A stretch of 64,000 nucleotides of DNA from a virus: positions 160,001-224,000 of the IMG/VR virus record IMGVR_UViG_3300045988_177154, one strand, 5' to 3'. The notes beneath the pieces are model-generated. The model worked only from the letters and a program-made list of their open reading frames with translations, ran no database searches and was not told the origin of the DNA. How positions within the stretch are numbered: position 1 is the stretch's first letter; each line of letters opens with the position of its first letter. This document shows, piece by piece, positions 17,295 to 59,964 of this stretch. Both the position numbers and the translations under genes were made by a program.

Positions 17295-17317
17295 TAAACA
17301 TGAAAGAAGGTTAATAA

Positions 17318-18652: not shown

Positions 18653-18696
18653 TATTTTATACATTAAAAAACTTTCAATAAGAAAGGAGCATAACT

Positions 18697-24873: not shown

Positions 24874-25432
24874 TTTAGTAGAACTAAAACTTGATAGAAT
24901 TGACCGCTATTTTGAAAAATTTAAAACAAAATATAAACTTCATTATGAACTTAATAAAACAAATAAGACACATTTGGTATTACCTTATCAGAAGTTAATA
25001 ATGCCTGTAATATTTATTTTTATTGGTATTATTACTTTTCTTATGACTCGTGTTATATATTGGCAAATAAGCAATTTTTCATCTAGCATGACATTATCAA
25101 GTTTTAATGAAGCTGCAATGTTGCTCATAAATATTTTATCTATTGTTTTATTGGGTGTACTCTCACTTTTGATTGTGACTCATCTTATTGACTTTTTTAA
25201 AAATATTCATAAAGAAACTATTGAATATACGAAAAAAGAATACTACAACAAAATTAAATCTATTATGATTGAGCAAATCCAATCAGAATTAAGTAATCTA
25301 ATTACTGAAGATATGCTTACATTTGATTTAGATGGGTTAATTATAGCTCCAAACTTAAATACTAATGAAAATATAAAGTTATTTAAAGAAATAGAAAGGG
25401 ATTTAAAGTTAAATGAGCAACAATCTCATTGA
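24863..25432 (+). CDS. tandem-paralog 2-TM protein, member 3 of 5
   Basis: MKNDLVELKLDRIDRYF...ITEDMLTFDLDGLIIAPNLNTNENIKLFKEIERDL. Confidence 0.65.
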   Translation: MKNDLVELKLDRIDRYFEKFKTKYKLHYELNKTNKTHLVLPYQKLIMPVIFIFIGIITFLMTRVIYWQISNFSSSMTLSSFNEAAMLLINILSIVLLGVLSLLIVTHLIDFFKNIHKETIEYTKKEYYNKIKSIMIEQIQSELSNLITEDMLTFDLDGLIIAPNLNTNENIKLFKEIERDLKLNEQQSH

Positions 25433-25997
25433 GCTCAAATATGATAGAGTCAAAGGATTCTTTGATGAAATGATAGCTAAATATGAAGTTGAGTATCAAA
25501 ATAATAAAACAACAACTGAAAAAATATATGTTAGTAATGTTAGAAGAGTATTAGAGTCTATCCTAATTATTTTTATTATGATTGCTTTTTGTGGGGGGCT
25601 AATTTGGTTCATAAAGAGTGGCTCCAATTACACTAAGACTGAATTTACAGATAAATTTATTAAGGTAATAGATGAAGATGTAATTCCATTATTAGCACCA
25701 TTTGTTGGTATTATTTTTGTTGGTTTGATAAATATTAAACTAATGAAAGTCATTCTTGGAATAAGGCCTAACAATGAAACAAGAACAATAACAAAAACTC
25801 TATCAAAAAAGAAATATTTCACCAAAATCAAAGCAGATATGCTCTATTACGTTAGATACAATTTAAGTTATTCCATTACAGAAAATATGCTTATCTTTGA
25901 TAAATATGGTATGATAATTGGGCCCGACTTAAGTACTAATGAAAACAAGAAAATATTTGGCGAAGTAGAGCATAAATTGGAGCAAAAGAATGAATAA
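25413..25997 (+). CDS. tandem-paralog 2-TM protein, member 4 of 5
   Basis: MSNNLIELKYDRVKGFF...ITENMLIFDKYGMIIGPDLSTNENKKIFGEVEHKL. Confidence 0.65.
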   Translation: MSNNLIELKYDRVKGFFDEMIAKYEVEYQNNKTTTEKIYVSNVRRVLESILIIFIMIAFCGGLIWFIKSGSNYTKTEFTDKFIKVIDEDVIPLLAPFVGIIFVGLINIKLMKVILGIRPNNETRTITKTLSKKKYFTKIKADMLYYVRYNLSYSITENMLIFDKYGMIIGPDLSTNENKKIFGEVEHKLEQKNE

Positions 25998-26508
25998 TAT
26001 AGTAGAATTTGGTTACCCTAATTTAGATAACTACTTTAAGGATTTGTTAGAAATCCAAAAGAAAAAATATGAAGTAAAAAAAGAGAAATGGCAAAATCAT
26101 TTTAAGGAATTTTTCTCTAAAGCTATTCCAGTTGTAATAAGCATGATTATTGTTTCAATCTTAAATCATTTAATAACTTTAGATTATCCTAATGCTGTTA
26201 AATTGATTCTTGTTATAGGTGATGTTATATCAGCTATTTATGTTTTTGTGAATGGTTTTGTTTTCCTATTTCATCTTCCATTATTCTTTATTTCTTCATA
26301 TGTTGTATTTAAAGAGATAGCAAATTACAAAAGCTATAACGAACGAGAAACACTTAGAACAATTAAAGATGATTTAGATGTTTATTTAAATAGCTCAAAC
26401 GTTATTATCAATTCTAAGGGCTTCATAACCGATTTAAAACGTGATGATAAAGAGCTCTGTCAAAAAATAGAAGAACATTTAAAAACAAACAAAAAAGAAG
26501 TTATTTAG
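25990..26508 (+). CDS. tandem-paralog 2-TM protein, member 5 of 5 (divergent)
   Basis: MNNIVEFGYPNLDNYF...INSKGFITDLKRDDKELCQKIEEHL. Confidence 0.6.
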   Translation: MNNIVEFGYPNLDNYFKDLLEIQKKKYEVKKEKWQNHFKEFFSKAIPVVISMIIVSILNHLITLDYPNAVKLILVIGDVISAIYVFVNGFVFLFHLPLFFISSYVVFKEIANYKSYNERETLRTIKDDLDVYLNSSNVIINSKGFITDLKRDDKELCQKIEEHLKTNKKEVI

Positions 26509-38466: not shown

Positions 38467-39432
38467 ATGAAAATGAATAAAAAAATTGCTGTAGCTTGTG
38501 CTACGTTGTTATCAATCGTAACATTTGCAGCTTGTGCTCATAAATCAGATGTGCTTGTTTCTATGAAAACAGGCGACATTACAAGTGAGAAATTTTTTGC
38601 ACAAATTAAATCAAATCCAACAGTTCAGACTTTACTTTCAAATGAAGTTATCTCTACTGCTTTAGAAGATAAATATAAAGACAAAGTAACTTCTGATGAT
38701 GTAGAAAAAGAATACGAAAAAATGAAAGAGCAATATGGCGACCAATTCCAATCTGCACTTGTTGCTGCTGGATTAACAGAAAACACTTATAAAGCTCAAT
38801 TACGTTCCACTCTATTACTTGATTATGCTGTTAAAACTGCAGCTGAACAAGAATTAAAAGACGCTGACTATGAAGAAGCTTTTAAATCTTACACTCCAAC
38901 TATGACAGTTAAATTCGTTAAAACAAAAACAAAAGATGAAGCAAAAACTGTTGTAGATGAACTCAAAAAAGAAACAGCCGTTGATACACTTGTTGCTAAA
39001 TATGGCACATTATCAAAAGCTGACCAAAAAACTGGTGAATTAACTTTTGACTCAACTACTAAAGATGTAGAACCTGAATTACTTGCTCAAATTACTCCAA
39101 TGGAAGTTAATAAAGTATCAGAACCAATTGCAATCACTGACCGTAAAACTTATGAAACTGTTTATTACGTTGTGAAAGTAACTAAAAAAGATGCTAAAAA
39201 AGAAACTTGGAAAGATTATGAAACAATCTTAAAAGATTACATTATCAATAAAAAAGCTTCTGATAAGAATTATGCTAAACAAGTTGTATCAGAATTACTT
39301 AAAGAGTACAAAGTAGAAGTCAAAGACGAAGCATTTAAAAATGTTATTGAACAATACTTAAATCATAAAAATACTGAAACAACTGAAGCAACAGAAACTT
39401 CTGAAACAACTTCTACTACAGAAGCAAAATAA
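38467..39432 (+). CDS. prsA: foldase lipoprotein PrsA/PpmA-like
   Basis: Lipobox FAAC. Collinear with streptococcal PpmA/PrsA (SMK.GDIT...F..IKSNP..Q.LL; YTP..T; ITFDS). Confidence 0.85.
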   Translation: MKMNKKIAVACATLLSIVTFAACAHKSDVLVSMKTGDITSEKFFAQIKSNPTVQTLLSNEVISTALEDKYKDKVTSDDVEKEYEKMKEQYGDQFQSALVAAGLTENTYKAQLRSTLLLDYAVKTAAEQELKDADYEEAFKSYTPTMTVKFVKTKTKDEAKTVVDELKKETAVDTLVAKYGTLSKADQKTGELTFDSTTKDVEPELLAQITPMEVNKVSEPIAITDRKTYETVYYVVKVTKKDAKKETWKDYETILKDYIINKKASDKNYAKQVVSELLKEYKVEVKDEAFKNVIEQYLNHKNTETTEATETSETTSTTEAK

Positions 39433-39437
39433 ACACA

Positions 39438-39595
39438 AAAAAGAGCTATAAAATATAGCTCTTTTTCTTTTTATTTCAAACTGTAAAATAAGCGACTTTA
39501 AGCTGTTTTACTGGATAGTCGATACATTTATCGAAATCCAGTTTAAACTGTTTTAGCGTTCGCTATATGACGATATAACAACCCTCAAAAGCAGT
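39438..39595 (+). repeat. dispersed intergenic repeat, copy R7, including the prsA terminator
   Basis: Terminator aaagagctataaaatatagctcttt, then ctgtaaaataagcgactttaagctgtttt, TCGATACATTTATCGA (39519-39534) and tgacgatataacaaccctc. Inverted partner at 51190-51340. Confidence 0.85.
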
Positions 39596-47684: not shown

Positions 47685-48491
47685 TCAAATACTTTTATTC
47701 TTTAATATTTTTATTTTCTTTTTAAGCTTTTTGTCAGTTAAGTTATCTTCATTTACTTTCTTGAATGAAACTAAAATCGAAGCATCTGTATAATCCCAAA
47801 TATTTTCAGTTTCATCATTTGTTACAATATAAGCTCTGGGATTATGGTCAGAAATTCTAACTAGAAAATTATCTCCTTTAGCTTCATTTATATCCGGTCT
47901 TATTCTATATTCATAACCATTTCTATCTAAGTAATCAACAGTATCTTTCAATGAGGATTTATCGAATAAGAAATAAGAACTTGCTGAAGCTCTTGAAAAA
48001 GATTTGTCTGTAATATTCTTTTCATTGTGGAAATAAAGTTTAGAAGCTTGCTCTCTATATTCAATAATGTTATTGAACTCCTCTTGGAGTTTTTTAGATT
48101 TTTCTCTTTCTGCTTTGTAAAAGTTATCATGTTCTTTGAAGTTTGCAATAAATTCTTCTTTAGTAGGACATTTTCGTTTATTTCTTTTCATAACTTTTTG
48201 GAGTTTTTCATATTGAGAATTAGCTTGTTCTAGTAATAATTCTTCTCTATATTTTGCTTTATTTAAACGAACTTCCATATTTTGCGTATCAACTATTTCT
48301 TCAATTTTACAATGTTTATACAAAGTAACTTCTGTTGTTATATTTCTAGCAATAAAATCATTCAAATTATCTGAATATAATTGAGCTTTCTCTACTGTAT
48401 CAAAATGAGGTGAAATACTTTCATAAGGACAGTTACCTTTCTTAGCTTTACAAATACTTGGTTTACCATTTGGCCCAACATGATAAGTCAT
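47685..48491 (-). CDS. HCCH-module family protein 4
   Basis: N-terminus TYHVGPNGKPSICKAKKGNCPYESISPHFDTVEKAQLYSD. Confidence 0.7.
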   Translation of the reverse strand: MTYHVGPNGKPSICKAKKGNCPYESISPHFDTVEKAQLYSDNLNDFIARNITTEVTLYKHCKIEEIVDTQNMEVRLNKAKYREELLLEQANSQYEKLQKVMKRNKRKCPTKEEFIANFKEHDNFYKAEREKSKKLQEEFNNIIEYREQASKLYFHNEKNITDKSFSRASASSYFLFDKSSLKDTVDYLDRNGYEYRIRPDINEAKGDNFLVRISDHNPRAYIVTNDETENIWDYTDASILVSFKKVNEDNLTDKKLKKKIKILKNKSI

Positions 48492-49053: not shown

Positions 49054-50193
49054 ATGTATCATATTAACCATGAGGGAGAAGTTAAAAAATGTAGAGCATT
49101 TATTCGTCCTTGCCCTTACTCTAAAGATAAACATTTCAGAACACAATTTGAAGCTATGCAAGAAGCTGCTGAATTAAGAACTGCTTATGAATTTAAAATT
49201 AAATCTATTCTACAAGAACTAAAAATGCTTGATAAGTATTATGAAGAAGCAGAAAGAGATTATCAAGATTTAAATATTGTAAAAGAAGAAGTTAAAAATA
49301 TAGTTGGTAATAAACCAGGTATGAATAGACATTATAGAGAAGTTGTATGTAATTTACTTGGTGATGAAATTGGTAATCCAATTAGCACATCAAAAGGAAT
49401 AGTAAAATACTTCAAAGATAATAATAGGTCTTTTCTTTTAAATAATTTTGACGAAGTAGAAGCAGAAGCTATTTCAGATGTTAGTAGAATTATGGATAGT
49501 ACAGAATCTTTCAGAGACCCTAGCAAAAAATACTCTGTTTATTATGATGAAGTGCAAAGAAGAATGAGAAATACTAAAGAAATGATTGAAGCATGCCATG
49601 AATTAGGTATTAGTATTGATACATATAACTTTGAATATGTTGTTGGTGATGACCACCCATTTGATTTTTTTAACTCTGTTACTGTTGATGAAAATGGTGA
49701 AATCAATAATTTGTATTATTTGGGATTGGAAGGCCAAAATTTCCATGCTGAGCCATCTAAAGTAACAAAAATTGAAAACAATTTATTATATACAGAAAAT
49801 CACCCAGAAGGTTTATTCTTACCATTAACTTATCAAGAGAAAAATAGACCTGTTAAAGATACTGCAAGAGCTATTTTCTTTAGAGATAAAAATGCTAAAG
49901 GAACTCATGTAGATTTTGCTAATAATAAGTTTTGGAATACTAATCCTATTGAATGGGATTCAGAAGTTGATGATACAGATTCAGATTTAAAATGGGGAAT
50001 TGATAAGAACTATGATTATCATGACTCAAATCAATTGAAAGATTTCTCAACTATCATGAAAAGAAAAGATATGCAAGGAAAAGATAGTTTTACATTCACT
50101 AAATCTGCTGTTTTACCAAAAATGACTAAAGCTGAAGCTATTGAAGATGCTAATAGAAGATTAAAAGAAGCTCGTGAAGAATGGCCATTTTAA
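49054..50193 (+). CDS. HCCH-module family protein 5 (divergent)
   Basis: N-terminus MYHINHEGEVKKCRAFIRPCPYSKDKHFRTQFEAMQEAAE. Confidence 0.65.
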   Translation: MYHINHEGEVKKCRAFIRPCPYSKDKHFRTQFEAMQEAAELRTAYEFKIKSILQELKMLDKYYEEAERDYQDLNIVKEEVKNIVGNKPGMNRHYREVVCNLLGDEIGNPISTSKGIVKYFKDNNRSFLLNNFDEVEAEAISDVSRIMDSTESFRDPSKKYSVYYDEVQRRMRNTKEMIEACHELGISIDTYNFEYVVGDDHPFDFFNSVTVDENGEINNLYYLGLEGQNFHAEPSKVTKIENNLLYTENHPEGLFLPLTYQEKNRPVKDTARAIFFRDKNAKGTHVDFANNKFWNTNPIEWDSEVDDTDSDLKWGIDKNYDYHDSNQLKDFSTIMKRKDMQGKDSFTFTKSAVLPKMTKAEAIEDANRRLKEAREEWPF

Positions 50194-50356
50194 AAAACAA
50201 AAAAGCTAACAATATGTTAGCTTTCTTTTTTATAACCTCTATTTAATTAAAAATATTTCCAAAAATGGATAGTAAATCAAATCCTATTAGGCTATATTTG
50301 AAAAGTTATATCATGAGTTTTGGAATAATAAAAATAAAAAGAAAGGTTTTGCTAAT

Positions 50357-50812
50357 ATGAAATTTTACTATCACAACTTTAAAGATTTAAGAGGAAACCA
50401 CATTAAATATTTTGCTAATGGAGATGATTTTAAAGTAGAAGAAGTTTTTACTACTATCTCACACAAAAACGTTTTAAGAGGTTTTCATACATCAAGCAAA
50501 CAAGAAAAACTTATCAAAGTATTAAATGGTTCATTACATCTAATTACTGTAAATGAAGAAACAAAAGAAATTACTCATTATGACATGAATGTTGATTCTG
50601 AGCCAATCTTTATTCCATTGAATACTTGGGTGGGCTATGTTATCAAAGAAAACAATACAATTGTTAATTATATTTGCTCTGGTAAATTCTCACCTGAAAC
50701 AGATTTAACTTGCTCTCCTAAATCATTCGCAAATGAATGGCTATGGCCTATTCCTTATTCAGATATTATCATTTCTGAAAAAGACGACCAGGCAGAAATC
50801 AGAACTTTATAA
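50357..50812 (+). CDS. RmlC-like cupin (dTDP-sugar epimerase/isomerase-like)
   Basis: F.DLRG......F........SHKNVLRGFH......KLI.V..G.......; 151 aa, shorter than canonical RmlC. Confidence 0.5.
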   Translation: MKFYYHNFKDLRGNHIKYFANGDDFKVEEVFTTISHKNVLRGFHTSSKQEKLIKVLNGSLHLITVNEETKEITHYDMNVDSEPIFIPLNTWVGYVIKENNTIVNYICSGKFSPETDLTCSPKSFANEWLWPIPYSDIIISEKDDQAEIRTL

Positions 50813-50849
50813 AAGAAAAGGATTTTTTAATCCTTTTCTTTTTTTGAGC

Positions 50850-51095
50850 AAAAAAGCCTAAAAATACTCAAAATCACCGGTAAAATACTCAATTTCAGCC
50901 CCAAAATACTCAAAAAGAGCCATAAAATACTGATAAAAAAGGGTAAAATACTGTTTTTTAACATTACGCCATTTTACGGCTGCTGTAAGCCGTTGAGCAA
51001 GAACAGTTAAAGCGATTTGCAAAACAGCGCTTTTTCAGCTAATAACTATAAATAACTAAAAAATAACAAAATAAATAACTCAATAAATAACCAGC
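50850..51095 (+). repeat. left arm of an inverted repeat pair of about 250 bp
   Basis: Reverse-complement match by eye (roughly 85-90 percent) to 54676-54925, including the iterons and an ATAAC-phased AT-rich block. Confidence 0.85.
50861..50965 (+). repeat. iteron array: five AAAATACT(C/G)(A/T)-type cores on an exact 21-bp register
   Basis: Cores start at 50861, 50882, 50903, 50924 and 50945. Confidence 0.85.
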
Positions 51096-51189
51096 TTCGT
51101 AAGCTCTTACGAGCATCACTCGCTGAATTAAGTAAGTAAAATGCTTTAAGGAGTATTTTTTATTTTAGAGAAATGCTCTAATTAAATAT

Positions 51190-51340
51190 GAGGGTTGTTA
51201 TATCGTCATATAGTTAATGCTAAAACAGTAAAATCATAATTTCGATAAATGTATCGACTTTTAACAAAAACAGCTTAGAGTCGCTTATTTTACAGTTTAA
51301 AACAAAAAGAAAAAGAGCTATAAAATATAGCTCTTTTTAT
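51190..51340 (-). repeat. dispersed intergenic repeat, copy R8 (inverted), including the ligA terminator
   Basis: Reverse complement of the R7 unit: gagggttgttatatcgtca, TCGATAAATGTATCGA (51242-51257), cagcttagagtcgcttattttacag, and terminator aaagagctataaaatatagctcttt. Confidence 0.85.
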
Positions 51341-53265
51341 AATTTATCCTTTGAAAATTCTTCAAAATTCATAATTGGAATATTTAATGAAATTGCTTTT
51401 TTCAATTTGCTTGACATTTTCGTTTTATCTTCAGTTAATAAAACATTAGTATCTTTATTGATTGATTTAGTAAAAATCCAACCTTGTTTTTCAAGTTCTG
51501 AAATCAATTCATCTCTATTCTTAAAGTTTTGAGGAACTTTGCCTGTATGACAATAATAACCTTTAACAGTAATATTATCAGATTTATTCATAACACAACC
51601 AATATTATTTAATTCATTGAATGTTGCTTTTGCAATTTCAAAATATTCTTCAAAACTCTTAACAAAAGCATTACCTAAACCGTTAATTGATTTAATTTTT
51701 TCAATAGATTTATTTTTATCAGAGAATAGCTCTTCAAGTGAATTAAATTCTTTGAGGATTTTCTTGGCAGTAACACTTCCAAGTGTTGGAATACCGAAAG
51801 ATAATAACCAACGATAAGGTTGAGTATCATTTTTAGCTTTTTGAATGTTATCATAAATAAGTTTAGCTCTTGTTTTACCGAGAGAAACACCACTTGAATC
51901 AAATTTAACTTCTTCTAATTCTTTCAAATCTAAGTTCATTAAATCAACTACAGATTCTAATTTCAATGCTTTAAGAACTTCACCTGATAATCCGTCAATA
52001 TCTAAACATTGTTTAGAAACAATATTGGTCATCATATAACTTTTTCTTGATTCACAATTAGGATTCAAACAGAATAAATCTTTACTTTCTTGACCTTGTT
52101 CATTATATTTATAATCAAGTGCATTGTTACAATAAGGACAAACTTTAGGAATTTCAAGTTCTTCATCTGATTCTTTAGTTGTCATAACAATAGCTGGAAT
52201 AACATCATTAGCACGTTTAACAAGAACTTCTGCACCTTTAGAGATTTTCTTTTCTTGTAACCATTTGAAATTGTTTCCAGTAATGTTAGTAATTGTTACA
52301 CCATCAATTGTAATGGGGGAAATCTTAACTCTAGGAGTAATTTTCCCAGTATTACCGATTGTGAATGAAATATCTTCTACTTTTGTTACTTTTTGTTCCC
52401 CTGGGTATTTAAAGGCAATATACTCTTTAGGGTGGTGACTTGTTTCACCAATTTTGATTTGCTCATTTGGTTTAATTACGATACCATCTGTTGGAGCAGA
52501 GCATTCCATTCGCCAAATTTTAGCTTGTTCAATATTTTCAGCTAATTCTTCAAAAGTTGAAGCACTATTTTTAGGGAATAAATCTTTAGCAGAAAATACA
52601 TTAGTAGGAATTTCTATAAATTCATCATTTTGGTCAACTGCAAAATATGTAGCAAAAGATAATTTAGCATTGAAATCTAAGCCTAATTTTCCTTTTGATA
52701 CAATTCCAGCAACTGCACTTCGTTCATTTGAATATTTATCATTAACTTTATTTTGATTGTTAATAATTAAATCAGATTTACTGCTATATAATTCGCCACG
52801 TAATTCTTTAATATTTGCATTAGGTTGTTGTAGTGGTAAATTCTCAATAGTAAGTTTGTCTGACTCAATAAGATAAGTTACGTTCTCACCAACTTCTCCA
52901 TTTCCACGAGTTGATAAGATAACTTCATTATCAGAAATATAATGAACTGACAAGGCCAAACCGTCTAATTTTGGTTCAATTGAATAAGTTTTAGCTCCAT
53001 GAGATTTAGTTTCATCATAGTATTTATTTACTTCTTGGATTGAATTAGCTTTTTTCAATGATTTCATTGGTTTAGCATGGTGAACTTCATTATTAACATC
53101 AATTTCAATACCATCATTGATTTCTGTATCTTGGATTAGCCATCCATTTTCTTCGGCTAATTGTGTCAATGAATCATATTCTTCATCAGTTAAAAGTAAT
53201 TCTTGGTTATTGTAATAAGCTTCAGAAGCATTTTTTAATAATTCTAGCAATTCTTCTTTTTGCAT
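51337..53265 (-). CDS. ligA: NAD-dependent DNA ligase
   Basis: Adenylation motif EPKLDGLA, OB fold, Cys4 zinc finger (CPYC...CLNPNC), HhH region and a BRCT-like C-terminus. Confidence 0.9.
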   Translation of the reverse strand: MQKEELLELLKNASEAYYNNQELLLTDEEYDSLTQLAEENGWLIQDTEINDGIEIDVNNEVHHAKPMKSLKKANSIQEVNKYYDETKSHGAKTYSIEPKLDGLALSVHYISDNEVILSTRGNGEVGENVTYLIESDKLTIENLPLQQPNANIKELRGELYSSKSDLIINNQNKVNDKYSNERSAVAGIVSKGKLGLDFNAKLSFATYFAVDQNDEFIEIPTNVFSAKDLFPKNSASTFEELAENIEQAKIWRMECSAPTDGIVIKPNEQIKIGETSHHPKEYIAFKYPGEQKVTKVEDISFTIGNTGKITPRVKISPITIDGVTITNITGNNFKWLQEKKISKGAEVLVKRANDVIPAIVMTTKESDEELEIPKVCPYCNNALDYKYNEQGQESKDLFCLNPNCESRKSYMMTNIVSKQCLDIDGLSGEVLKALKLESVVDLMNLDLKELEEVKFDSSGVSLGKTRAKLIYDNIQKAKNDTQPYRWLLSFGIPTLGSVTAKKILKEFNSLEELFSDKNKSIEKIKSINGLGNAFVKSFEEYFEIAKATFNELNNIGCVMNKSDNITVKGYYCHTGKVPQNFKNRDELISELEKQGWIFTKSINKDTNVLLTEDKTKMSSKLKKAISLNIPIMNFEEFSKDKL

Positions 53266-53342
53266 ATATTTTCCCCTTTCTTCAATAATTTTATTATAAC
53301 AAAAAATATAATAAAAGTCAAAAAAGATAACAACAAAAGTTG

Positions 53343-54533
53343 CTATTTGTTGTTATCTTCGAAGTGTATAGTTTTTAAACCACCCCACGGTTGTAGAGTT
53401 TCATCATTTCTTTCTATTTCTAAGAAAGTATAATTGTCATGTAAATCAGCTCTTTTTTCAGAATTTCTTGTAGTTAAAGATTTTCTAAATCCAGCATAAT
53501 CAATGACATCAACTTTTTCACCAGCAGAGAATCCAACAACTTTATAAAGCTTATTATCATCTGCCATTAAATAAACATTATCAATTTCATTATTTTTCAT
53601 TTTTGGATTAAGTTTTAAATCATAATCGCCAGTTGATGGCAAATCTGTTGAATTGATACGTTTAACAAATTTTGGTTCTTCATCAATATATTTAGAGAAG
53701 TTATTTCTGATAGCCATTTCTCTATTTAATTTAGCAAGAATTTCTTTTCTAGTATTATTAGACTCTTTCAATTCAATTTTATTAGCACGTTTTAATTGAA
53801 CTGTTGGTTTAGCTGTTTGTTTCAACATTTCAAATCTTGCTTTAGCTTGTTGTTCTAAATGATTGTTGAGTTCTTCATCAGTAATAGTTGCTAATTTATA
53901 TTTTTCTACGTTTTTATCAATTTCTTTTTTATAAATAGCTACAGCTTCTTTAAAATTTTGTGCATATCTTGAAGTTAGAACTTTATTATAAAATCTATCA
54001 TGTAAATGAGCTCTATTATTTAAATCTATTTGATTATTTTCATCAAGGAAGTACTCATCACAAAAGAGCTTTGCTATTTTATTATTAGTAATATTTTCAA
54101 TTAAACCTTTTGGTACATTATTTTTCCACGGACGAAAATCAAAAGTCTTTCTTGCATTAACTACTTCACTTATATAAGATTGATTTTCTGCTATTATTTC
54201 ATTTTGAGCTCTTTCATATAATTCTTGTAATTCTTCTTGTGATAAAGCTTCATTAACAGGTTTTTGATTACTTTCAATAGCATTATGCTCTTTATTCAAT
54301 TCATCTAAAACAATTCTTCTATAAATTCTTAATTCTTTGTTACTTAAATTTTCATATGGATGATATTCCATAGCTTTATTTAGGTCTATTTCTACTTGCA
54401 TTTTAAAATCAGACATATATTGTGCTGATTCAAAACTATCCAAATGTTCATCTTCTGAAGCAAAAGGGCAACGACCTGATTTAGCCATACATTCACTAGG
54501 AACACCATTATTGTTTATATGGTATTTAGTCAT
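53343..54533 (-). CDS. HCCH-module family protein 6
   Basis: N-terminus TKYHINNNGVPSECMAKSGRCPFASEDEHLDSFESAQYMSD. Confidence 0.7.
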   Translation of the reverse strand: MTKYHINNNGVPSECMAKSGRCPFASEDEHLDSFESAQYMSDFKMQVEIDLNKAMEYHPYENLSNKELRIYRRIVLDELNKEHNAIESNQKPVNEALSQEELQELYERAQNEIIAENQSYISEVVNARKTFDFRPWKNNVPKGLIENITNNKIAKLFCDEYFLDENNQIDLNNRAHLHDRFYNKVLTSRYAQNFKEAVAIYKKEIDKNVEKYKLATITDEELNNHLEQQAKARFEMLKQTAKPTVQLKRANKIELKESNNTRKEILAKLNREMAIRNNFSKYIDEEPKFVKRINSTDLPSTGDYDLKLNPKMKNNEIDNVYLMADDNKLYKVVGFSAGEKVDVIDYAGFRKSLTTRNSEKRADLHDNYTFLEIERNDETLQPWGGLKTIHFEDNNK

Positions 54534-54675
54534 AGTTTAACCTCTATTTATTTTTAGTTTTTATATCGTGCTATATTATAAAGAGTATATAATATAGTTT
54601 ATAACCCAACAATTCCTCTTATAGACTATATTTCTGTGAAGTTGGCTATACAAGGCGCTAGGCTTGTTGCCAACG

Positions 54676-54925
54676 AGCAGGTTATCTATTAAGTTATTTA
54701 TTTTGTTTTTTAGTAGTTGTTTATAGTTATTAACTGAAAAAGCGCTGTTTCAATAATCGTTTTAACTGTTGTTACTCAACGGTTTACAGCAACTGCAAAA
54801 CAGCGTAATGTTAAAAAACAGTATTTTACCCCTTTTTATCAGTATTTTATGGCTCTTTTTGAGTATTTTTGGTCCGAATTTGAGTATTTTATCGGTTATT
54901 TTGAGTATTTTTGGGTATTTTTTAA
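54676..54925 (-). repeat. right arm of the inverted repeat pair of about 250 bp
   Basis: Reverse complement of 50850-51095. Confidence 0.85.
54807..54911 (-). repeat. iteron array (inverted): five AGTATTTT cores on an exact 21-bp register
   Basis: Cores at 54820, 54841, 54862, 54883 and 54904. Confidence 0.85.
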
Positions 54926-55009
54926 AAAATAAAAACCCTAGACTTTAGTCTAGGGCGAACTTGGAAGGTACAATGAGATAAACGGTTTGGAGCATTTTTC
55001 TCATGTACG
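54924..55009 (-). ncRNA. candidate small RNA of about 85 nt, defined by an orphan promoter and terminator
   Basis: Minus-strand TTGACA (55044-55039), 17 nt, TAAAAT (55021-16). Hairpin CCCTAGAC/GTCTAGGG (54936-54955) followed by a T-run on the minus strand. No credible ORF. Confidence 0.3.
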
Positions 55010-55076
55010 ATTTATATTTTATAATAAAAATTTCAGCTTGTCAAGAAAAAATTTTAATTTTTTTAACAAAAATAAA

Positions 55077-55094
55077 TGGAATAATAAAACTAAG
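55077..55094 (+). promoter_or_regulatory. conserved promoter-like motif variant TGGAATAATAAAACTAAG
   Basis: Upstream of the Rep-like gene. Confidence 0.5.
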
Positions 55095-55158
55095 AAAATC
55101 TAAAAATAAAAAAGGAGTAATCCCTCTTAAAAGAAATAGTGGGAAGTGAATAATTTTT

Positions 55159-57777
55159 ATGAGCAAAATTAAGAATTTGGAAGAAATTGCTTTAAATGAT
55201 ACATTATTAGTTGGAGTTAAATTTTCTACGTTAATCAATTCTTACTTTACAAATGAAGAAGCTATGCTTTACTACGCTTTGATGTCATATTTTAATGATG
55301 TTGATGAAATAGATTGCAATGATGGCCGAGATATTTTGGTTCAAAGTCTTTTAGATAGAGCATATTGTAAAGACATTAAAATTTTAAAAGAAAATAGAAA
55401 TAATGTTAATAATATGATTAACAAGCTTAAAAATAATCTTTATAATGCTGTAACTGGAGATAAAGTTACTCTTTTTGACGAGCTTGAAGTAGTTTGGAAT
55501 CGTCCATTAAGAGAAAGTTATCTTAAAGTTAGAGTTAATGAAGAAGCTGCAAGAGAATACTTGCATTATGAAGATTCACAATATATTAAAGTAAGATTAG
55601 CACCATTAAGAGATTTAAAATCAGTTACTTACAAAAGAGCATTTATTCTTTTTAGCCAATGGACAGATTACACTGGCTCAGAAAAATTCTTTTTCGTAAA
55701 TAATGCTAATTTTATTGAATCTATTTATGGTGATAAAAAATTAAGTGGCTTAACTTATAAGAAATATAAAACTCATTACTTAGACAAAATGATTCAAGCT
55801 CTAGGATTATGTTTCCCTAATGTTGAATTTAGATTAGATAATAAAGATAACATTTTGTACAAGAATGTTATGAAATTCAAAGTTAGAGCTAGAGATAAAG
55901 AGTTCTTTGATAAATATGCTCTATATAAACGATTAGAGTTAATGAAAAATAGAGATTTAGAATTTTTAGAAGGCTCTTATAATTTTGAAGATGAATTAAA
56001 AGAATTTAAATTCTATAATATGACACCAGAAGAAATTATTGCTGAATCAGCAGTTGCTTTCCAACAAACAAGTGAAGAACCATTTGCTGAAATTTCAGAA
56101 GAAGATTTCTATAATACAGAAGAAGTTGAATACGAAACAGAATCAATTGAAGAAGCTATTGAAGAATTAGAAACATTTAGAGATAAGAAAGAAGCTATTA
56201 CTTCAGATGAAAATATTCTTAAATCAGAAGAATTGCTTAATCAAGTAGAAAATGATAACTATGTTATTGATACATTAAGAAAAGAATTAGTAGATAATCT
56301 TGCTTTAAAATCAGAATTAGCTCAATACGACTTAGATGAAAAATTCACAAATGTTGTAGATAATTTGCTTGAAGAAATGGAAAGTTATCCTAATAAAGAA
56401 AATTATGAATTTTCAACTGGTGTAATTTCAACTAATCCTAAATTAGTAAATGACATGGATTTCCCTGAAGAAGATGCAACAACATTAAATATTAAATACG
56501 GTGATAGTAGAAGTTTCACTTTAGATGAAATTAAAGCTATCGATGGCGAAAACAAATATTATAAATTGTTTAAAGCTTTCGCACTAGTCGGCCTTTTAAA
56601 AGAAGCAGTATTTAATGGGAAAGAATTATCTAAACAATATGAATATGCTAAAGAATCTAATTCTACTTTATTTGATGTATTAGCAACTCTCCATTTTGAT
56701 TTAGCAGAAACGCTAGAAAGTCATGATTTTAATTTGTTTGATGCTCTTTTTGAAATATTTACTATTAAATTAGGATATGGAGCAAATGAAGCTTTATTCA
56801 AAATTGTTAATATTGTTAAGAATATGAATTATGCTTTAGCATTATATGAAGAATTAAAACTTGAAACAGAATCTATTGAAGAAACAGAAGTGACTGATTC
56901 AAATGGTTATGGAAGTGATTTATTCAATATGAAAAAAGAATCTGCTAAAGAAGAACCAAAAGAAGAAGTTATTAAGGAAGAAATAAAAACTGAAGCAAAG
57001 AATGGAGCTCTTATGGGAATGTTAAGTAAAGAAAAACAAAAAGCTATTGCAAATGAAGTTACTAATGAAATAGAAAAAGATTATAGCTTTTTAAAACAAC
57101 CTAATTTAGATGTTAATGAAATTTTAAATGAAAATAAATTAGAATTAAATAATTATAAAGATAACTATAAAGACTTAAGATATGGATTTGAAGATGAAAC
57201 TGTTGAAAGTAGTAAAGCACTTGTTCCACAATTAGAAAACAGAAGTCTTAATAATCTAAAATACTTCATTCAAAATAAAGTTGTTGATAATTATAGCGAA
57301 TGGTCAAGCTCTACTAAAGAAACTGCATTAGAAGTTATCAAACGTTTTGAAGATGAAAATAATTTCTCAGTGCTAAAAATGTTTAATCAATTTATTTCTA
57401 ATTCAGAAAGAGTAGACATTAAAAATAGATTAGATAAAATGTGGCTAGAAACTGAAAAGATTTACAAAGCTGAACATGATAGATTATTAAATCAAAGAGC
57501 AGAAATTGCTACAACTATTCCTAATTTCTATGAGGAAATTTTACCAAATGCTATTAACAATGAAGATTCTTATAGAATTATGTGTGAATGGAGTGCTTAT
57601 GGACATTTAGCTAAAAAAGTTTCTAATAAAAAGAAATCTATCTTGTTATTTATTGAAACTCTAATTGCTACTTGTCAAGAAAATATTGATAAATGTGGGC
57701 AACTTGAGGGTGTTTACAATGAAAATGTCATTAAAAAAATCCAAACAATAGCAAATTTGAAAAAAAATTTAAAATAA
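55159..57777 (+). CDS. large protein with a RepB/Rep_3-like (winged-helix) initiator N-terminal region and an acidic C-terminal extension
   Basis: Residues about 150-250 (LRDLKSVTYKRAFILFSQW.....FFV....F.ESIYG....Y..YK..YLDKMI..L.......F.....K.....V.KFKV) follow the Rep_3 pattern. The gene lies next to iterons. Confidence 0.5.
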   Translation: MSKIKNLEEIALNDTLLVGVKFSTLINSYFTNEEAMLYYALMSYFNDVDEIDCNDGRDILVQSLLDRAYCKDIKILKENRNNVNNMINKLKNNLYNAVTGDKVTLFDELEVVWNRPLRESYLKVRVNEEAAREYLHYEDSQYIKVRLAPLRDLKSVTYKRAFILFSQWTDYTGSEKFFFVNNANFIESIYGDKKLSGLTYKKYKTHYLDKMIQALGLCFPNVEFRLDNKDNILYKNVMKFKVRARDKEFFDKYALYKRLELMKNRDLEFLEGSYNFEDELKEFKFYNMTPEEIIAESAVAFQQTSEEPFAEISEEDFYNTEEVEYETESIEEAIEELETFRDKKEAITSDENILKSEELLNQVENDNYVIDTLRKELVDNLALKSELAQYDLDEKFTNVVDNLLEEMESYPNKENYEFSTGVISTNPKLVNDMDFPEEDATTLNIKYGDSRSFTLDEIKAIDGENKYYKLFKAFALVGLLKEAVFNGKELSKQYEYAKESNSTLFDVLATLHFDLAETLESHDFNLFDALFEIFTIKLGYGANEALFKIVNIVKNMNYALALYEELKLETESIEETEVTDSNGYGSDLFNMKKESAKEEPKEEVIKEEIKTEAKNGALMGMLSKEKQKAIANEVTNEIEKDYSFLKQPNLDVNEILNENKLELNNYKDNYKDLRYGFEDETVESSKALVPQLENRSLNNLKYFIQNKVVDNYSEWSSSTKETALEVIKRFEDENNFSVLKMFNQFISNSERVDIKNRLDKMWLETEKIYKAEHDRLLNQRAEIATTIPNFYEEILPNAINNEDSYRIMCEWSAYGHLAKKVSNKKKSILLFIETLIATCQENIDKCGQLEGVYNENVIKKIQTIANLKKNLK

Positions 57778-57849
57778 TGGTTGACAAGTTATTGATATTG
57801 TGTTAGTATTTGTTTAACAACATTAAAAATAAAGGAAAAGGTGACTAAA

Positions 57850-59304
57850 ATGTCTTTTATGGATAATCTTAAAAACGAAAACAGAAAAACTGTTACAACA
57901 AATGGTGATTTAGCATATAGTACTACTCTAAATGCAAACCTAGACTTCTTTGGTGGTGCTGGTTCTATTCCAGTAAGTAAGAAATATACTTCTGATGAAT
58001 TTATGAACTTATTTAAATATGCTTACGAAGAAGATTCAGAAACTGCGCTTAAAAACGCTCTTTACTACCGTGATATTCGTGGTGGTTTGGGCCGCCGTGA
58101 AGGTTTCCGTCAAATCTTGACTTACCTTGCTAACAAAAATGTTGAAGATTTCAAACGCTTAGTAGTTCTTACTGCTATGTATGGTCGTTATGATGATTTG
58201 ACTATGATTGTTTGGGATTTACCAAACGAAGCACAAGCATTTGTTGTAGAATTTATTTCTGCTGTATTTAATGAAGATATGGATAACTTGAAATCAGGTA
58301 ATATTACATTGCTTGGTAAATGGTTACCATCTGCTAATACAAAAATTGCTAACACTCGTAAGTTAGGTCTTTTCTGGGCTTCTCGTTTAGGTTTAACTGA
58401 ACGTAACTACCGTAAAGCTCTATCACAATTACGTGCTCAAATCAACATTATTGAAACTAAATTGACTAACCGTGATTATAGTTTTGATTACTCTAAGATT
58501 CCTAGCCGTGCTATGATGAAATATACACAAGCATTCATTCGTAATGATGAAGCTCGTTATAATGAGTTCAAAGAACAAATCACTGTTAACCCATCAGTTG
58601 TTGCTAAGAAAGTTGCTCAACTTTATCCATACGAAATTATTCGTAAGTTAAATAGCGACAAGCAAATGGCTGAAGCTCTTTGGAAAGCTTATCCACAAAA
58701 CCAATTTGACGGTAACATTATTGTTGTCCGTGACGGAAGTGGAAGTATGTACGGGGGTTGGGGTCTTGAAGTAAAACCAATTGAAATTGCTGATTCTATG
58801 GCAATTTACACATCTGAACGTTTGACTGGTAAATTCAAAGACCATTTCATTACATTCAGTCGCCGTCCACAACTTGTTGATTTATCAAAGGTTAAAACTT
58901 TGAAAGAAAAACTTGATGTGTTATACCGTAACGGTGAAGTTGCTAATACAAACATGGACGCTACTATGAAGTTAATCTATGATTCATCATTAGGTTTACC
59001 AGTAGAAGAACAGCTTGATACAATCTTAATCATTTCAGATATGCAATTCGACTCTGGAGTAGACAATTGCTCTAAATCAGTAATGGATTCATGGAAAGAT
59101 AAGTTTGGTGACGCTGGATTGAAGTGGCCAGAAATTGTGTATTGGAATGTTAACCAATCAAAAGTTACATTCCCAACTTCTAAGTATGACAATGTGAAAC
59201 TTGTTTCAGGTTTCTCAAAAGCTGTACTAGAAGATGTCATGTCAAATGAAACAACTTCTGCTACTGAATACATGATGAAAGTATTATCTCGTTATAATCC
59301 TTAA
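57850..59304 (+). CDS. DUF2828/TROVE-like protein with a vWA (MIDAS) domain
   Basis: N-terminus TTNGDLAYSTTLNANLDFFGGAGS and MIDAS motif VVRDGSGSM. The ATG at 57850 is better spaced from the RBS than the GTG at 57841. Confidence 0.55.
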   Translation: MSFMDNLKNENRKTVTTNGDLAYSTTLNANLDFFGGAGSIPVSKKYTSDEFMNLFKYAYEEDSETALKNALYYRDIRGGLGRREGFRQILTYLANKNVEDFKRLVVLTAMYGRYDDLTMIVWDLPNEAQAFVVEFISAVFNEDMDNLKSGNITLLGKWLPSANTKIANTRKLGLFWASRLGLTERNYRKALSQLRAQINIIETKLTNRDYSFDYSKIPSRAMMKYTQAFIRNDEARYNEFKEQITVNPSVVAKKVAQLYPYEIIRKLNSDKQMAEALWKAYPQNQFDGNIIVVRDGSGSMYGGWGLEVKPIEIADSMAIYTSERLTGKFKDHFITFSRRPQLVDLSKVKTLKEKLDVLYRNGEVANTNMDATMKLIYDSSLGLPVEEQLDTILIISDMQFDSGVDNCSKSVMDSWKDKFGDAGLKWPEIVYWNVNQSKVTFPTSKYDNVKLVSGFSKAVLEDVMSNETTSATEYMMKVLSRYNP

Positions 59305-59346
59305 AATCACTAAAAACTGACCCTTAATTGGGTCTTTTTTTAGTTT

Positions 59347-59367
59347 TGGAATAATATAACTATGAAG
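59347..59367 (+). promoter_or_regulatory. conserved promoter-like motif TGGAATAATATAACTATGAAG, overlapping the start codon
   Basis: The ATG of 59362-59964 lies inside the motif. Confidence 0.5.
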
Positions 59368-59964
59368 AACTTTAATATTTTTGAAGTATTGAATATTTCT
59401 CATTTAGAGATTAAACATTCAGACGTATTGGCTTATTTATTTAATAATAAGGAAAGTCATAATTTAAAAGATACTTTCTTAAAGGAATTTATTTATGAAG
59501 TTGAAGCTGCTTCAAATATTGATTTAAACTTAACTTTAGATGATAGTTATAGTATTAAAAGAGAATATGCTATTCCAAAAGGCTTTGTTGATTTATTGCT
59601 CATATCCTACAAACATAGGACGATTATAGTAATAGAAAACAAAATCCAATCTAAAGAAAGAGATAATCAATTAAAAAAATATAAGGAACATTTCAAAGAT
59701 AAAGGTGCTGGATATAAATTAGTATTTATTTATCTTACTATGAATGACGAAAAAGCTTCTGATGATGAATATATTTCCGTTAACTATACAACTGTAATTA
59801 AAGCTTTAGATAGAATATTACGATATAAGAATTACTCAGAAAAGATTGAATATTTTTTAGAAGATTATTTATCAGTCTTGCTTAAAAAATATAAATTGAA
59901 ATCTTCTGCTGACTTAATTAACTTTAGAAAAACAATAAATATAGAAAGAGGTAAAAATGGCTAA
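59362..59964 (+). CDS. PD-(D/E)XK nuclease superfamily protein
   Basis: FNIFEVL..SHLEIKHSDVLAYLFN ... FVDLLL.....IIVIENKI.S.E.DNQLKKY is typical of the PDDEXK_4-like family. Confidence 0.6.
   Translation: MKNFNIFEVLNISHLEIKHSDVLAYLFNNKESHNLKDTFLKEFIYEVEAASNIDLNLTLDDSYSIKREYAIPKGFVDLLLISYKHRTIIVIENKIQSKERDNQLKKYKEHFKDKGAGYKLVFIYLTMNDEKASDDEYISVNYTTVIKALDRILRYKNYSEKIEYFLEDYLSVLLKKYKLKSSADLINFRKTINIERGKNG

What the first reader, a model, noticed from the sequence alone, without database searches (positions are those of the whole stretch)
50850..57777. Origin-like region: two inverted 250-bp arms, each with five iterons on a 21-bp register, bracket ligA next to a Rep_3-like gene
The left arm (50850-51095) and right arm (54676-54925) are reverse complements of each other. 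Each has five AAAATACT(C/G) cores spaced exactly 21 bp apart (50861/82/903/24/45 and 54820/41/62/83/904). Each then has a conserved segment of about 90 bp and an AT-rich block with ATAAC repeated every 10-12 bp (51042-51091). The right arm lies about 230 bp upstream of an 872-aa protein whose N-terminal third follows the RepB/Rep_3 winged-helix initiator pattern. Iterons spanning two helical turns next to a rep gene are the classic theta-plasmid origin layout. A duplicated, inverted origin module that encloses 3.6 kb (dispersed-repeat copy R8, ligA and an HCCH-family gene) is not the usual arrangement. It could mean handcuffing-type copy control, a bipartite origin, or an invertible cassette.
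Basis: partly seen in the sequence, partly recalled or inferred. Interest (0 to 1): 0.72.

Follow-up and report, generated by a model that had tools for sequence, protein, structure and literature searches.

The report
Repeated origin-like modules in giant plasmid
Two inverted 258-bp blocks of evenly spaced protein-binding repeats flank the DNA ligase gene of a roughly 320-kb plasmid-like element from human metagenomes; they are real, conserved, and belong to a family of at least three such blocks per element, and they are the best candidate yet for how this newly discovered kind of element controls its replication, though function is unproven.

Summary
Arms 50839-51096 and 54676-54933 are 86% complementary. 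Each has five AAAATACT cores exactly 21 bp apart, a G+C-rich spacer, and five ATAAC repeats 10-12 bp apart in a stretch of very low duplex stability. The layout recurs in all 16 related loci that span both arms (protein identity 55-98%).

- The arms are not a simple duplication. The same module also occurs about 130 kb away, with about 15 cores, and in further copies on related contigs. It is absent from 185,579 species genomes.
- All copies evolve in concert. Two contig-end junctions and two hybrid copies point to recombination between them, but every spanning contig has the window's orientation.
- The adjacent 872-aa protein is an orphan. It has no Pfam, NCBIfam or PDB match, and hhalign against a RepE profile gives 0.03%. 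Only low-confidence models hint at two winged-helix domains.

The element resembles the Streptococcus "Inocle" giant plasmids. My best reading, at about 0.45, is iteron-type replication origin and copy-control modules. Partition or organiser arrays are the main rival, at about 0.25. Rep_3 membership is not supported.

The parts
50817..50848 (+). A+T-rich hairpin plus T-run that ends the upstream epimerase-like gene (50357-50812). It forms the outer border of the left arm.
   Evidence: Read from the sequence. It falls below the scan's G-C-pair threshold. Pfam identifies the gene as dTDP_sugar_isom.
50839..51096 (+). Left arm: one complete module, made of iterons, spacer and ATAAC block.
50861..50953 (+). 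Five AAAATACT(C/G) cores on an exact 21-bp register. Each is preceded by a G/C-rich tetranucleotide. The rest of each 21-bp unit varies freely.
   Evidence: Logo from 158 units in 16 loci.
50954..51038 (+). G+C-rich spacer of about 85 bp. It differs between clades but is the same in all copies within a clade.
51039..51096 (+). Five ATAAC repeats 10-12 bp apart. Duplex stability is very low, and this is the best-conserved part of the module across clades (candidate unwinding element or second binding array).
51180..51347 (-). It includes the bidirectional terminator hairpin 51310-51338 after ligA.
51337..53265 (-). NAD-dependent DNA ligase (ligA), 642 aa.
   Evidence: Pfam DNA_ligase_aden, OB, HHH_2 and BRCT domains.
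53343..54533 (-). 396-aa protein with an N-terminal Cys/His motif and no family match. It is one of three paralogues near the locus.
54676..54933 (-). Right arm: a complete module in the opposite orientation. The ATAAC block (about 54676-54735) faces inward and the iterons (54819-54911) face the 872-aa gene.
54925..55009 (-). Candidate small RNA of about 85 nt. It would be transcribed from TTGACA-17-TAAAAT (55044-55016) toward the right arm and end at hairpin 54956-54935 plus a T-run, just before the first iteron.
   Evidence: Promoter and terminator scan. The promoter and terminator are conserved in all clades except L001, and the 5' stem is kept by changed pairs.
55077..55085 (+). TGGAATAAT, a likely extended -10 promoter of the 872-aa gene (inferred).
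   Evidence: Conserved upstream of the gene in all clades and in the remote homologue's locus L032. The same motif precedes other genes of the element (family D13).
55159..57777 (+). 872-aa orphan protein. It has a conserved N-terminal region of about 290 aa (predicted helix/strand order of two winged-helix-like units), an acidic linker and helical C-terminal domains. It is the candidate binder of the repeats.

Best explanation
The two arms are two members of an element-specific family of cis-acting modules. I read them as iteron-type replication origin and copy-control sites of an Inocle-like giant plasmid of about 320 kb.

**Proposed mechanism (inferred, not shown)**
- A plasmid-encoded DNA-binding protein occupies the phased AAAATACT sites on one face of the helix. 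The most plausible candidate is the adjacent 872-aa orphan, acting through its N-terminal domain.
- This distorts the DNA and opens the nearby ATAAC repeat block, about 85 bp away. The element's own replication proteins (DnaG and gyrase seen here; DNA polymerase III alpha reported for Inocles in the paper) can then load.
- The two inverted arrays 3.6 kb apart, and the larger array about 130 kb away, can be paired by the same protein through looping or handcuffing. That would limit initiation in a low-copy replicon.
- Terminators on the outer side of each arm shield the arrays from incoming transcription.

**Shown**
- The anatomy, its conservation, the multi-copy family and its concerted evolution.
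- The position in a replication-gene cluster at a local skew minimum.

**Inferred**
- Protein binding, which protein binds, origin firing, and pairing of arrays.
For: - **Phasing.** There are five cores per arm on an exact 21-bp register. Only about 9-10 bp plus a G/C-rich tetranucleotide is conserved across 158 units, while the rest of each unit varies. This is the signature of selection on protein contacts, not of tandem duplication.
- **Fixed module order.** Every copy has iterons, a G+C-rich clamp, then ATAAC repeats 10-12 bp apart (11 bp on average) of extreme low stability. The ATAAC block is the best-conserved part even in the 55%-identity clade.
- **Position.** The arms lie among HU, ligA, gyrB, RNase T-like, DnaG and TraG genes.
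- **Skew.** The cumulative G-C minimum is at 54,634 and the A-T/purine minimum at 54,923, the two edges of the right arm.
- **Family-specific pairing.** The 872-aa protein has only 63 relatives in 5.8 billion clusters and 22 hits among 1.84 billion representatives. In every relative locus fetched that holds enough upstream DNA, the right arm lies upstream of its gene. The module's 20-mer is found only on contigs of this family and in none of 185,579 species genomes.
- **Fold hint.** In both models the N-terminal region has the element order a1-b1-a2-a3-b2-b3 twice. The weak Foldseek hits are RepE and other tandem winged-helix proteins.
- **Extra arrays.** More iteron arrays elsewhere on the replicon fit what is established for P1 incA, F incC and RK2.
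Against: - There is no statistically supported link of the 872-aa protein to any initiator family. The structure models are of low confidence (pLDDT 40 and 52).
- The skew minimum coincides with a divergent gene pair. In the 51 kb to the left of the arms most genes point toward the arms, which does not fit a simple bidirectional origin.
- Module B lies among co-directional genes with no strand switch and no replication genes. It still carries the complete ATAAC block, so the module as such is not tied to an origin-like position.
- There is no DnaA-box cluster.
- The published Inocle study places origins by GC skew only, and I could not map this locus onto those positions (PMC12340149).
Confidence: 0.45

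Rival explanations
1. The modules are centromere-like or plasmid-organising arrays. A partition adaptor or a KorB/ParB-like organiser binds the phased repeats at several dispersed sites, to segregate or compact a low-copy 320-kb plasmid and perhaps to regulate neighbouring promoters. The 872-aa protein could itself be this adaptor: DNA-binding head, acidic linker, long helical tail.
For: - There are several dispersed arrays per element, one with about 15 sites that reaches the -35 of the next gene.
- Arrays of short direct repeats at helical phasing are typical of type Ib, II and III centromeres (established knowledge: R1 parC, pSK41 parC, tubC, the pAD1 RepC repeats; N15 has four dispersed centromere sites).
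- The 872-aa protein shows no initiator signature.
Against: - No ParA, ParM or TubZ-type NTPase and no ParB domain appears in the Pfam annotation of the genes listed around the arms and around module B.
- The strictly linked, strongly conserved, easily melted ATAAC block has no known role in centromeres.
- The arms sit in a replication-gene cluster.
Confidence: 0.25
2. The modules are operator or insulator arrays of a global transcription regulator of the element, unrelated to DNA maintenance.
For: - Each arm is bordered by terminators and promoters. Module B's outer cores overlap the promoter region of the downstream DUF7192 gene.
- A conserved small transcript abuts the right arm.
Against: - Five to fifteen phased sites linked to a separate AT-rich repeat block is far more than operators need.
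- The arms' iterons lie behind terminators, 100-250 bp from the nearest promoters.
Confidence: 0.12
3. The arms exist mainly to invert the 3.6-kb ligA cassette. This would be either a programmed switch or a recombination-driven amplification device of the yeast 2-micron type.
For: - Two contig ends join the right arm to the sequence that normally lies inside the left arm: L011 over 137 nt and L019 over 45 nt.
- The arms are homogenised within each genome, so they do recombine.
- Several assemblies break at the arms or give the cassette as a separate 3.66-kb contig.
Against: - All 23 loci that span the cassette have the window's orientation.
- No invertase or recombinase gene is nearby.
- The flipped junctions lie at contig ends, where assemblers can mis-join repeats that share 29-163 nt of exact sequence.
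- The modules also occur as single copies elsewhere.
Confidence: 0.06
4. The modules are selfish dispersed repeats (MITE- or BOX-like) with no function for the element, or they are polar replication-fork barriers.
For: - The family is dispersed and multi-copy, with hybrid copies at rearrangement points.
- The element carries another dispersed repeat family, R8.
- Inverted pairs of protein-binding sites are also the layout of fork traps (established knowledge: RTP and Tus sites).
Against: - Copy number is low and positions are orthologous across clades of 55-98% protein identity.
- Conservation of the cores and of their phasing, with free spacers, indicates selection for binding.
- Genes diverge, rather than converge, at the right arm, and skew is at a minimum, not a maximum.
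Confidence: 0.08

Closest known systems
Iteron-regulated theta origins with extra control arrays (P1 incC/incA, F incB/incC, RK2 oriV; lactococcal pCI305-type replicons with 22-bp x 3.5 repeats next to an AT-rich repeat region)
   Same: - Direct repeats are spaced two helical turns apart.
- An AT-rich block of short repeats lies beside them.
- A large gene is adjacent.
- Additional arrays of the same sites occur elsewhere on the replicon.
   Different: - The adjacent protein is not a detectable Rep_3, RepA_N or RPA member.
- Only a core of about 9-10 bp per 21-bp unit is conserved.
- The two arrays nearest the gene are inverted and flank ligA rather than the rep gene.
- Every extra array carries its own complete AT-rich block.
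- There are no DnaA boxes.
- The replicon is about 320 kb.
Split origins that need two separated arrays of initiator sites: satellite phage P4 ori/crr (4.5 kb apart), R6K gamma with alpha/beta, and the Bacillus subtilis oriC DnaA-box clusters flanking dnaA
   Same: Two arrays of the same sites lie a few kb apart and enclose genes. Protein-mediated looping is the expected mode of action.
   Different: In those systems the two parts differ from each other in make-up: P4 ori and crr, the R6K gamma iteron array and the partial sites at alpha and beta, and the two B. subtilis DnaA-box clusters. Here the two parts are near-identical complete modules in inverted orientation, and further copies exist.
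Bacillus phage SPP1 oriL/oriR, and herpesvirus oriS copies in inverted repeats
   Same: There is more than one complete origin-like module (initiator boxes plus an AT-rich region) per genome. In herpesviruses the copies lie in inverted repeats kept alike by recombination.
   Different: Those are viral genomes with known initiators (G38P, UL9). Here the element is plasmid-like and the binder is unknown.
Inocle giant extrachromosomal elements of oral Streptococcus (Kiguchi et al. 2025, PMC12340149)
   Same: - Contigs are 300-335 kb, from human metagenomes, some from saliva or oral samples.
- G+C is about 29%.
- The element carries tRNAs, IS/TnpB, a VirD4/TraG-like gene, Gram-positive cell-wall genes (LPXTG, FemAB, CHAP, G5) and redox and DNA-repair genes.
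- It is absent from isolate genomes.
   Different: - The marker gene InoC lies outside the window and was not checked.
- The paper places origins by GC skew only. A text search of it found no mention of iterons or inverted repeats, and it names no replication initiator.
Multi-site plasmid centromeres (N15 sopC sites, pAD1 RepC repeat clusters, RK2 KorB operators)
   Same: Several dispersed arrays of one binding site occur on a low-copy replicon, some next to promoters.
   Different: No partition NTPase or ParB-type gene was found near any copy examined. The linked AT-rich repeat block has no counterpart in those systems.

Membership tests
Rep_3 / RepB-RepE initiator family (PF01051 + PF21205) | Significant match to the family profile | tested here: not met
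   hmmscan against Pfam gives no family for the full protein. It gives none for residues 1-276 or for the remote homologue P0068, even at E<=10. NCBIfam gives none.
Rep_3 / RepB-RepE initiator family (PF01051 + PF21205) | Profile-profile similarity to RepE | tested here: not met
   hhalign of A3 against a 13-sequence RepE profile (A5) gives probability 0.03% and E 0.93. The only alignment overlays residues 115-231 on the RepE WH2 region at 15% identity.
Rep_3 / RepB-RepE initiator family (PF01051 + PF21205) | Two tandem winged-helix domains (WH1 + WH2) | tested here: inconclusive
   The AlphaFold models have low confidence (pLDDT 40 and 52). The predicted element order fits two winged-helix units. 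Foldseek puts RepE 2z9o_A at rank 3 but with E=0.22 and TM 0.23-0.29.
Iteron-type theta replication origin | Three or more directly repeated sites at helical phasing | tested here: met
   There are five cores per arm at exactly 21 bp, enriched against shuffles and phased on both arms in all 16 spanning loci.
Iteron-type theta replication origin | Adjacent easily melted AT-rich region with short repeats | tested here: met
   The ATAAC x5 block has 15% G+C and dG in the least stable 1% of the window (left arm). It is conserved in every copy. That it actually unwinds is not shown.
Iteron-type theta replication origin | Cognate initiator gene next to the iterons, binding them | not testable with these tools
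   An orphan 872-aa gene lies 226 bp from the right arm, with the same arrangement in every relative locus that holds enough upstream DNA. Binding needs EMSA or ChIP.
Iteron-type theta replication origin | Host DnaA boxes in the origin (common but not universal) | tested here: not met
   TTATCCACA with up to 1 mismatch gives 18 hits against 19 expected, and none in 50.7-55.2 kb.
Iteron-type theta replication origin | Autonomous replication of the fragment, and origin position confirmed by skew or marker frequency on the whole replicon | not testable with these tools
   Only a local skew minimum at the right arm could be computed. No complete contig was available.
Inocle elements | InoC marker gene (about 454 aa, PF13814 domain) | not tested
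   InoC is not in the window or in the fetched loci. The definition is from PMC12340149.
Inocle elements | Plasmid-like element of 245-395 kb from the human oral cavity, with VirD4, tRNAs, IS, and cell-wall and stress genes | tested here: met
   Contigs are 300-335 kb. A TraG/VirD4-like gene is present, as are tRNAs, TnpB, and LPXTG, FemAB, CHAP, G5, glutaredoxin, 5'-3' exonuclease and similar genes. Circularity and host were not tested.
Plasmid partition centromere (types Ib, II, III) | Repeat array directly upstream of a par operon that encodes an NTPase and an adaptor | tested here: not met
   No ParA, ParM, TubZ or ParB domain appears in the Pfam annotation of the genes listed around the arms or module B. 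The rest of the element was not seen.
Programmed invertible DNA segment | Site-specific recombinase next to the inverted repeats | tested here: not met
   There is no recombinase or invertase domain in the neighbourhood.
Programmed invertible DNA segment | Both orientations present in populations | tested here: inconclusive
   All 23 spanning loci are canonical. Two flipped junctions occur at contig ends, in L011 and L019. Read-level data are needed.
Transposon or MITE with terminal inverted repeats | Mobility: variable insertion sites, a transposase, target duplications | tested here: not met
   The position and synteny are the same across clades of 55-98% identity, and no transposase lies between the arms.

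The most novel reading that the evidence does not exclude
Inocle-type giant plasmids may carry several complete, interchangeable origin modules that are used by a new initiator family (the 872-aa orphan). Recombination between inverted modules would then re-orient replication forks or genome segments, in a 2-micron-like or herpesvirus-like isomerisation. That would be a multi-origin bacterial replicon whose origins are kept alike by gene conversion.
Probability: 0.12. Interest if true: 0.85.

Novelty: new variant of a known kind. Interest (0 to 1): 0.58.

Why it matters
Inocles were described only in 2025. They are reported in about 74% of people, yet the published study places their origins by GC skew alone and names no initiator. 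This locus gives concrete, testable candidates:
- a defined cis module of about 250 bp;
- an adjacent orphan protein that may represent a new initiator or organiser family;
- a minimal fragment (54.6-57.8 kb) to try as a mini-replicon in Streptococcus salivarius.

The module family also explains why short-read assemblies of these elements break or rearrange here. It also offers an unusually clear case of concerted evolution of maintenance sites scattered over a 300-kb replicon.

Tried and rejected
**Searches that found nothing**
- Megablast of 50-58 kb against the phage collection, and tblastn of the 872-aa protein against phages and plasmids.
- Relatives of the 872-aa protein in genome contigs.
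- Rfam: only a sub-threshold DapZ hit on the ligA terminator.
- A DnaA-box cluster.
- A scan of genome contigs for three phased cores returned only unrelated repeats in Nostoc, Prevotella and others, so it was uninformative.

**Protein identification that led nowhere**
- The full-length and N-terminal AlphaFold models were too poor for fold assignment. Foldseek against PDB and BFVD gave no significant hit to a named family.
- The hhalign comparison with RepE failed.
- P0068 has no further relatives.

**Leads dropped**
- The apparent distant relatives L022, L029 and L031 (38-53% identity) are indel-ridden long-read assemblies, not diverged homologues.
- F plasmid under accession AP001918 is not in the collections. 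I used NC_002483 instead.
- No supplementary files are held for the Inocle paper, so its origin positions could not be mapped.

**Readings rejected**
- Transposon with terminal inverted repeats: the synteny is conserved and there is no transposase.
- Terminus or fork trap: genes diverge at the right arm and skew is at a minimum.
- Alternative genetic code in L029/L031: the stop codons come from frameshifts.


Full report
**1.

The arms 50839-51096 and 54676-54933 form a 258-nt inverted repeat, 86% complementary, with 3579 nt between them. It is the longest inverted repeat in the window.

Each arm has five AAAATACT(C/G) cores exactly 21 bp apart. The motif occurs 18 times in the window against 4.16 expected, and 0 of 100 shuffles reach that. 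Ten of the copies are in the arms.

Inward of the cores lie a spacer of about 85 bp and five ATAAC repeats at 51042/52/63/75/87. The 60-bp stretch 51030-51089 has 15% G+C and falls in the least stable 1% of the window. The spacer beside it falls in the most stable 1%.

Between the arms lie a copy of a dispersed repeat, ligA, and a 396-aa gene with no family match. The right arm ends 226 bp before an 872-aa ORF.

**2. What the replicon is**

The 872-aa protein has relatives only in metagenomes: 63 clusters in all. Many sit on contigs of 300-335 kb, and the most distant cluster on one of up to 360 kb. None is found in 185,579 species genomes.

The neighbourhoods carry:
- HU, gyrB, an RNase T-like exonuclease, DnaG primase, a TraG/VirD4-like coupling protein and FtsK;
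- a 5'-3' exonuclease, tRNAs and TnpB;
- Gram-positive surface and cell-wall genes: LPXTG, FemAB, CHAP, G5/CAP and GA.

G+C is 29%. This matches the "Inocle" giant plasmid-like elements of oral Streptococcus (PMC12340149). The marker gene InoC lies outside the window, so membership is inferred, not shown.

The protein is 100% identical, over the 300-residue query, to UniProt A0A8S5RV51 (also 872 aa), deposited as "Siphoviridae sp. ctHip2". Relatives sit in IMG/VR. The gene content seen here is not phage-like, so those labels are probably wrong.

**3. The architecture is conserved**

All 16 related loci that span both arms share the same layout: epimerase(+) | arm | R8 | ligA(-) | 396-aa gene(-) | arm | 872-aa gene(+). 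Protein identity to the window ranges from 55% to 98%. Both arms carry cores in a 21-bp register: five per arm in 15 loci, and four matched in L001, the 55% clade.

A logo from 158 units shows two things:
- AAAATACT is invariant, preceded by W and a G/C-rich tetranucleotide.
- The other positions of each 21-bp unit vary freely, even between the two arms of one genome.

That pattern indicates selection on phased protein contacts on one face of the helix, not recent tandem duplication. The ATAAC block is the most conserved part of the module across all clades. The spacer, by contrast, is entirely different in the 55% clade.

**4. Concerted evolution and recombination**

Within a genome the two arms are 85-97% identical. 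Between genomes, left-to-left, right-to-right and left-to-right comparisons give the same values, 70-95%. The 55% clade has its own spacer, identical in both of its arms. So the arms exchange sequence by gene conversion. Only the innermost few bases stay arm-specific.

Evidence on crossing-over is mixed:
- Two contigs join the right arm to the sequence that normally lies inside the left arm, in reverse: L011 over 137 nt and L019 over 45 nt.
- Several assemblies break at the inner edge of the right arm, or give the cassette as a separate 3.66-kb contig.
- Yet all 23 spanning loci have the window's orientation.
- The arms share 29-163 nt of exact sequence, so the flipped junctions could be assembly joins.

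Inversion is therefore a hint, not a finding.

**5. The module is a dispersed family**

An exact scan of IMG/VR for three phased cores, and a second scan for a 20-mer of the ATAAC block, found further complete modules on the same elements.

- **"Module B".** It lies between an AAA_5 ATPase gene and a DUF7192 gene, about 130 kb from the arms, on contigs of 315 kb and 281 kb. It has the five phased cores plus about ten more at irregular spacing, reaching the -35 of the next gene. It has the same orientation as the right arm relative to the 872-aa gene. It lies among co-directional genes with no strand switch.
- **Two hybrid copies.** L059 and L069 carry the module plus the left arm's inner flank and R8, but are not followed by ligA. 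L059's outer cores resemble those of the module-B-type copy L076. These look like products of recombination between copies.
- **Shared variants.** Module B shares the clade-specific spacer variants of the arms, so all copies evolve in concert.
- **Specificity.** The 20-mer occurs on only seven IMG/VR contigs, six of which carry the 872-aa gene, and in no species genome.

**6. The 872-aa protein**

- It has no Pfam, PHROG or NCBIfam family and no PDB sequence match.
- It has only 22 hits among 1.84 billion representatives, mostly fragments.
- One remote homologue, P0068 (669 aa), shares the N-terminal 340 residues and is also followed by a PD-(D/E)XK nuclease gene and gyrB.
- The N-terminal region of about 290 residues is the most conserved part. 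An acidic linker and helical domains follow.
- The AlphaFold models are poor (pLDDT 40 and 52). Both give the element order a1-b1-a2-a3-b2-b3 twice, as in two winged-helix domains.
- Foldseek finds nothing below E=0.1 in the PDB. RepE is at rank 3 (E=0.22) among other tandem winged-helix proteins.
- hhalign against a RepE profile gives 0.03%.

The Rep_3 claim is therefore not supported. A tandem winged-helix head remains possible.

**7. Other features of the locus**

Both arms have a terminator on their outer side. On the left it is the epimerase gene's hairpin plus T-run. On the right it is 54956-54935 on the minus strand.

The right-hand terminator ends a short transcript that would start at a near-consensus promoter, TTGACA-17-TAAAAT at 55044-55016. 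The promoter and terminator are conserved in all clades except the 55% one. The 5' stem is maintained by changed pairs.

No DnaA-box cluster is present. The cumulative G-C minimum is at 54,634 and the A-T/purine minimum at 54,923, the two edges of the right arm. This coincides with a divergent gene pair. Most genes in the 51 kb to the left point toward the arms.

**8. Interpretation**

The fixed combination of a phased binding array, a G+C clamp and a conserved, easily melted repeat block is origin anatomy. So is its position next to a family-specific orphan DNA-binding candidate, inside a replication-gene cluster. Extra arrays elsewhere are what iteron replicons use for copy control. The closest analogies are:
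- split origins (P4 ori/crr, R6K, B. subtilis oriC);
- multiple origin modules (SPP1 oriL/oriR, herpesvirus oriS).

I put this reading at about 0.45.

The main rival, at about 0.25, is a multi-site centromere or organiser array. Its weak points are that no partition genes lie near any copy and that the ATAAC block is unexplained. Operator arrays, a programmed inversion switch, and selfish repeats or fork barriers are less likely.

**9. Novelty**

The Inocle paper places origins by GC skew only and names no replication initiator. A text search of it found no mention of iterons or inverted repeats.

This is a new variant of a known kind. The logic is iteron-like, but several features are unusual:
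- inverted complete modules flank ligA;
- at least three copies per replicon are kept alike by gene conversion;
- the associated protein is an orphan.

The decisive tests are listed separately: coverage and skew on closed contigs, long-read orientation counts, mini-replicons, and binding assays.

Noticed in passing
At least two copies (39.4 kb, 51.3 kb) abut the hairpin AAAAAGAGCTATAAAATATAGCTCTTTTT (a variant lies at 11.76 kb). In L025 the left arm and the epimerase gene are missing. Instead, the CHAP and DHFR genes (window 39.9-41.9 kb, flipped) abut the R8 copy next to ligA, as expected from an 11.6-kb inversion between the inverted R8 copies at 39429-39587 and 51189-51347.
   Followed up: partly
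window 54925-55044 (- strand): A conserved near-consensus promoter (TTGACA-17-TAAAAT) and a terminator bracket a transcript of about 85 nt that reads toward the right-arm iterons and stops just before them. The 5' stem is maintained by different sequences in four clades. The loop is variable. The promoter is absent from the 55% clade (L001).
   Followed up: partly
window 47685-48491 (-), 49054-50193 (+), 53343-54533 (-): Three paralogous proteins (268, 379 and 396 aa) share an N-terminal motif, YH-x4-G-x4-C-x-A-x2-G-x-CP-x6-7-HF. None has a Pfam, PHROG or NCBIfam match. They cluster around the arms.
   Followed up: partly
window 23841-26508: Four to five tandem paralogous genes (160-194 aa each) lie on a period of about 550-574 nt (repeat families D2 and D3). 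They have no Pfam match in the related locus L007.
   Followed up: no
window 55159-57777; BFVD entry A0A8S5RV51; IMG/VR contigs L009-L014: The 872-aa protein is 100% identical, over the 300-residue query, to a UniProt entry of the same length named 'Siphoviridae sp. ctHip2', and relatives are filed in IMG/VR as viral genomes. The gene content seen here (cell-wall, redox, conjugation and replication genes, with no structural phage genes in the annotated stretches) suggests a mislabelled plasmid-like element.
   Followed up: partly
L005:14801-16225, L006:5247-6671, L007:8363-9625: TnpB / Cas12f1-like (IS605-type) genes are inserted in some relatives, between the PD-(D/E)XK nuclease gene and gyrB and next to the FtsK-like gene. 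They are absent from the window at those places, so the mobile content is variable.
   Followed up: no
L022, L029, L031 (BNJT/BNJV contigs): These syntenic loci look like 38-53% relatives, but they are full of frameshifts. Conserved peptide blocks are interrupted by out-of-frame stretches, as in uncorrected long-read assemblies. They are not diverged homologues and not alternative-code genomes.
   Followed up: yes
window 6187-6223, 50318-50354, 59344-59380, 55077-55085: The recurrent motif TTTTGGAATAATATAACTA / TGGAATAAT lies directly upstream of several genes. It is probably the element's common extended -10 promoter.
   Followed up: no
window 16379-18653: A cluster of four tRNA genes: Met, Arg(TCT), Met and Ser(GCT).
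   Followed up: no
window 57841-59304: Directly after the 872-aa gene lies a DUF2828/DUF7788 protein that matches phrog_850 (annotated as an RNA-binding protein), followed by a PD-(D/E)XK nuclease gene and gyrB. The nuclease-gyrB pair also follows the remote homologue P0068.
   Followed up: no
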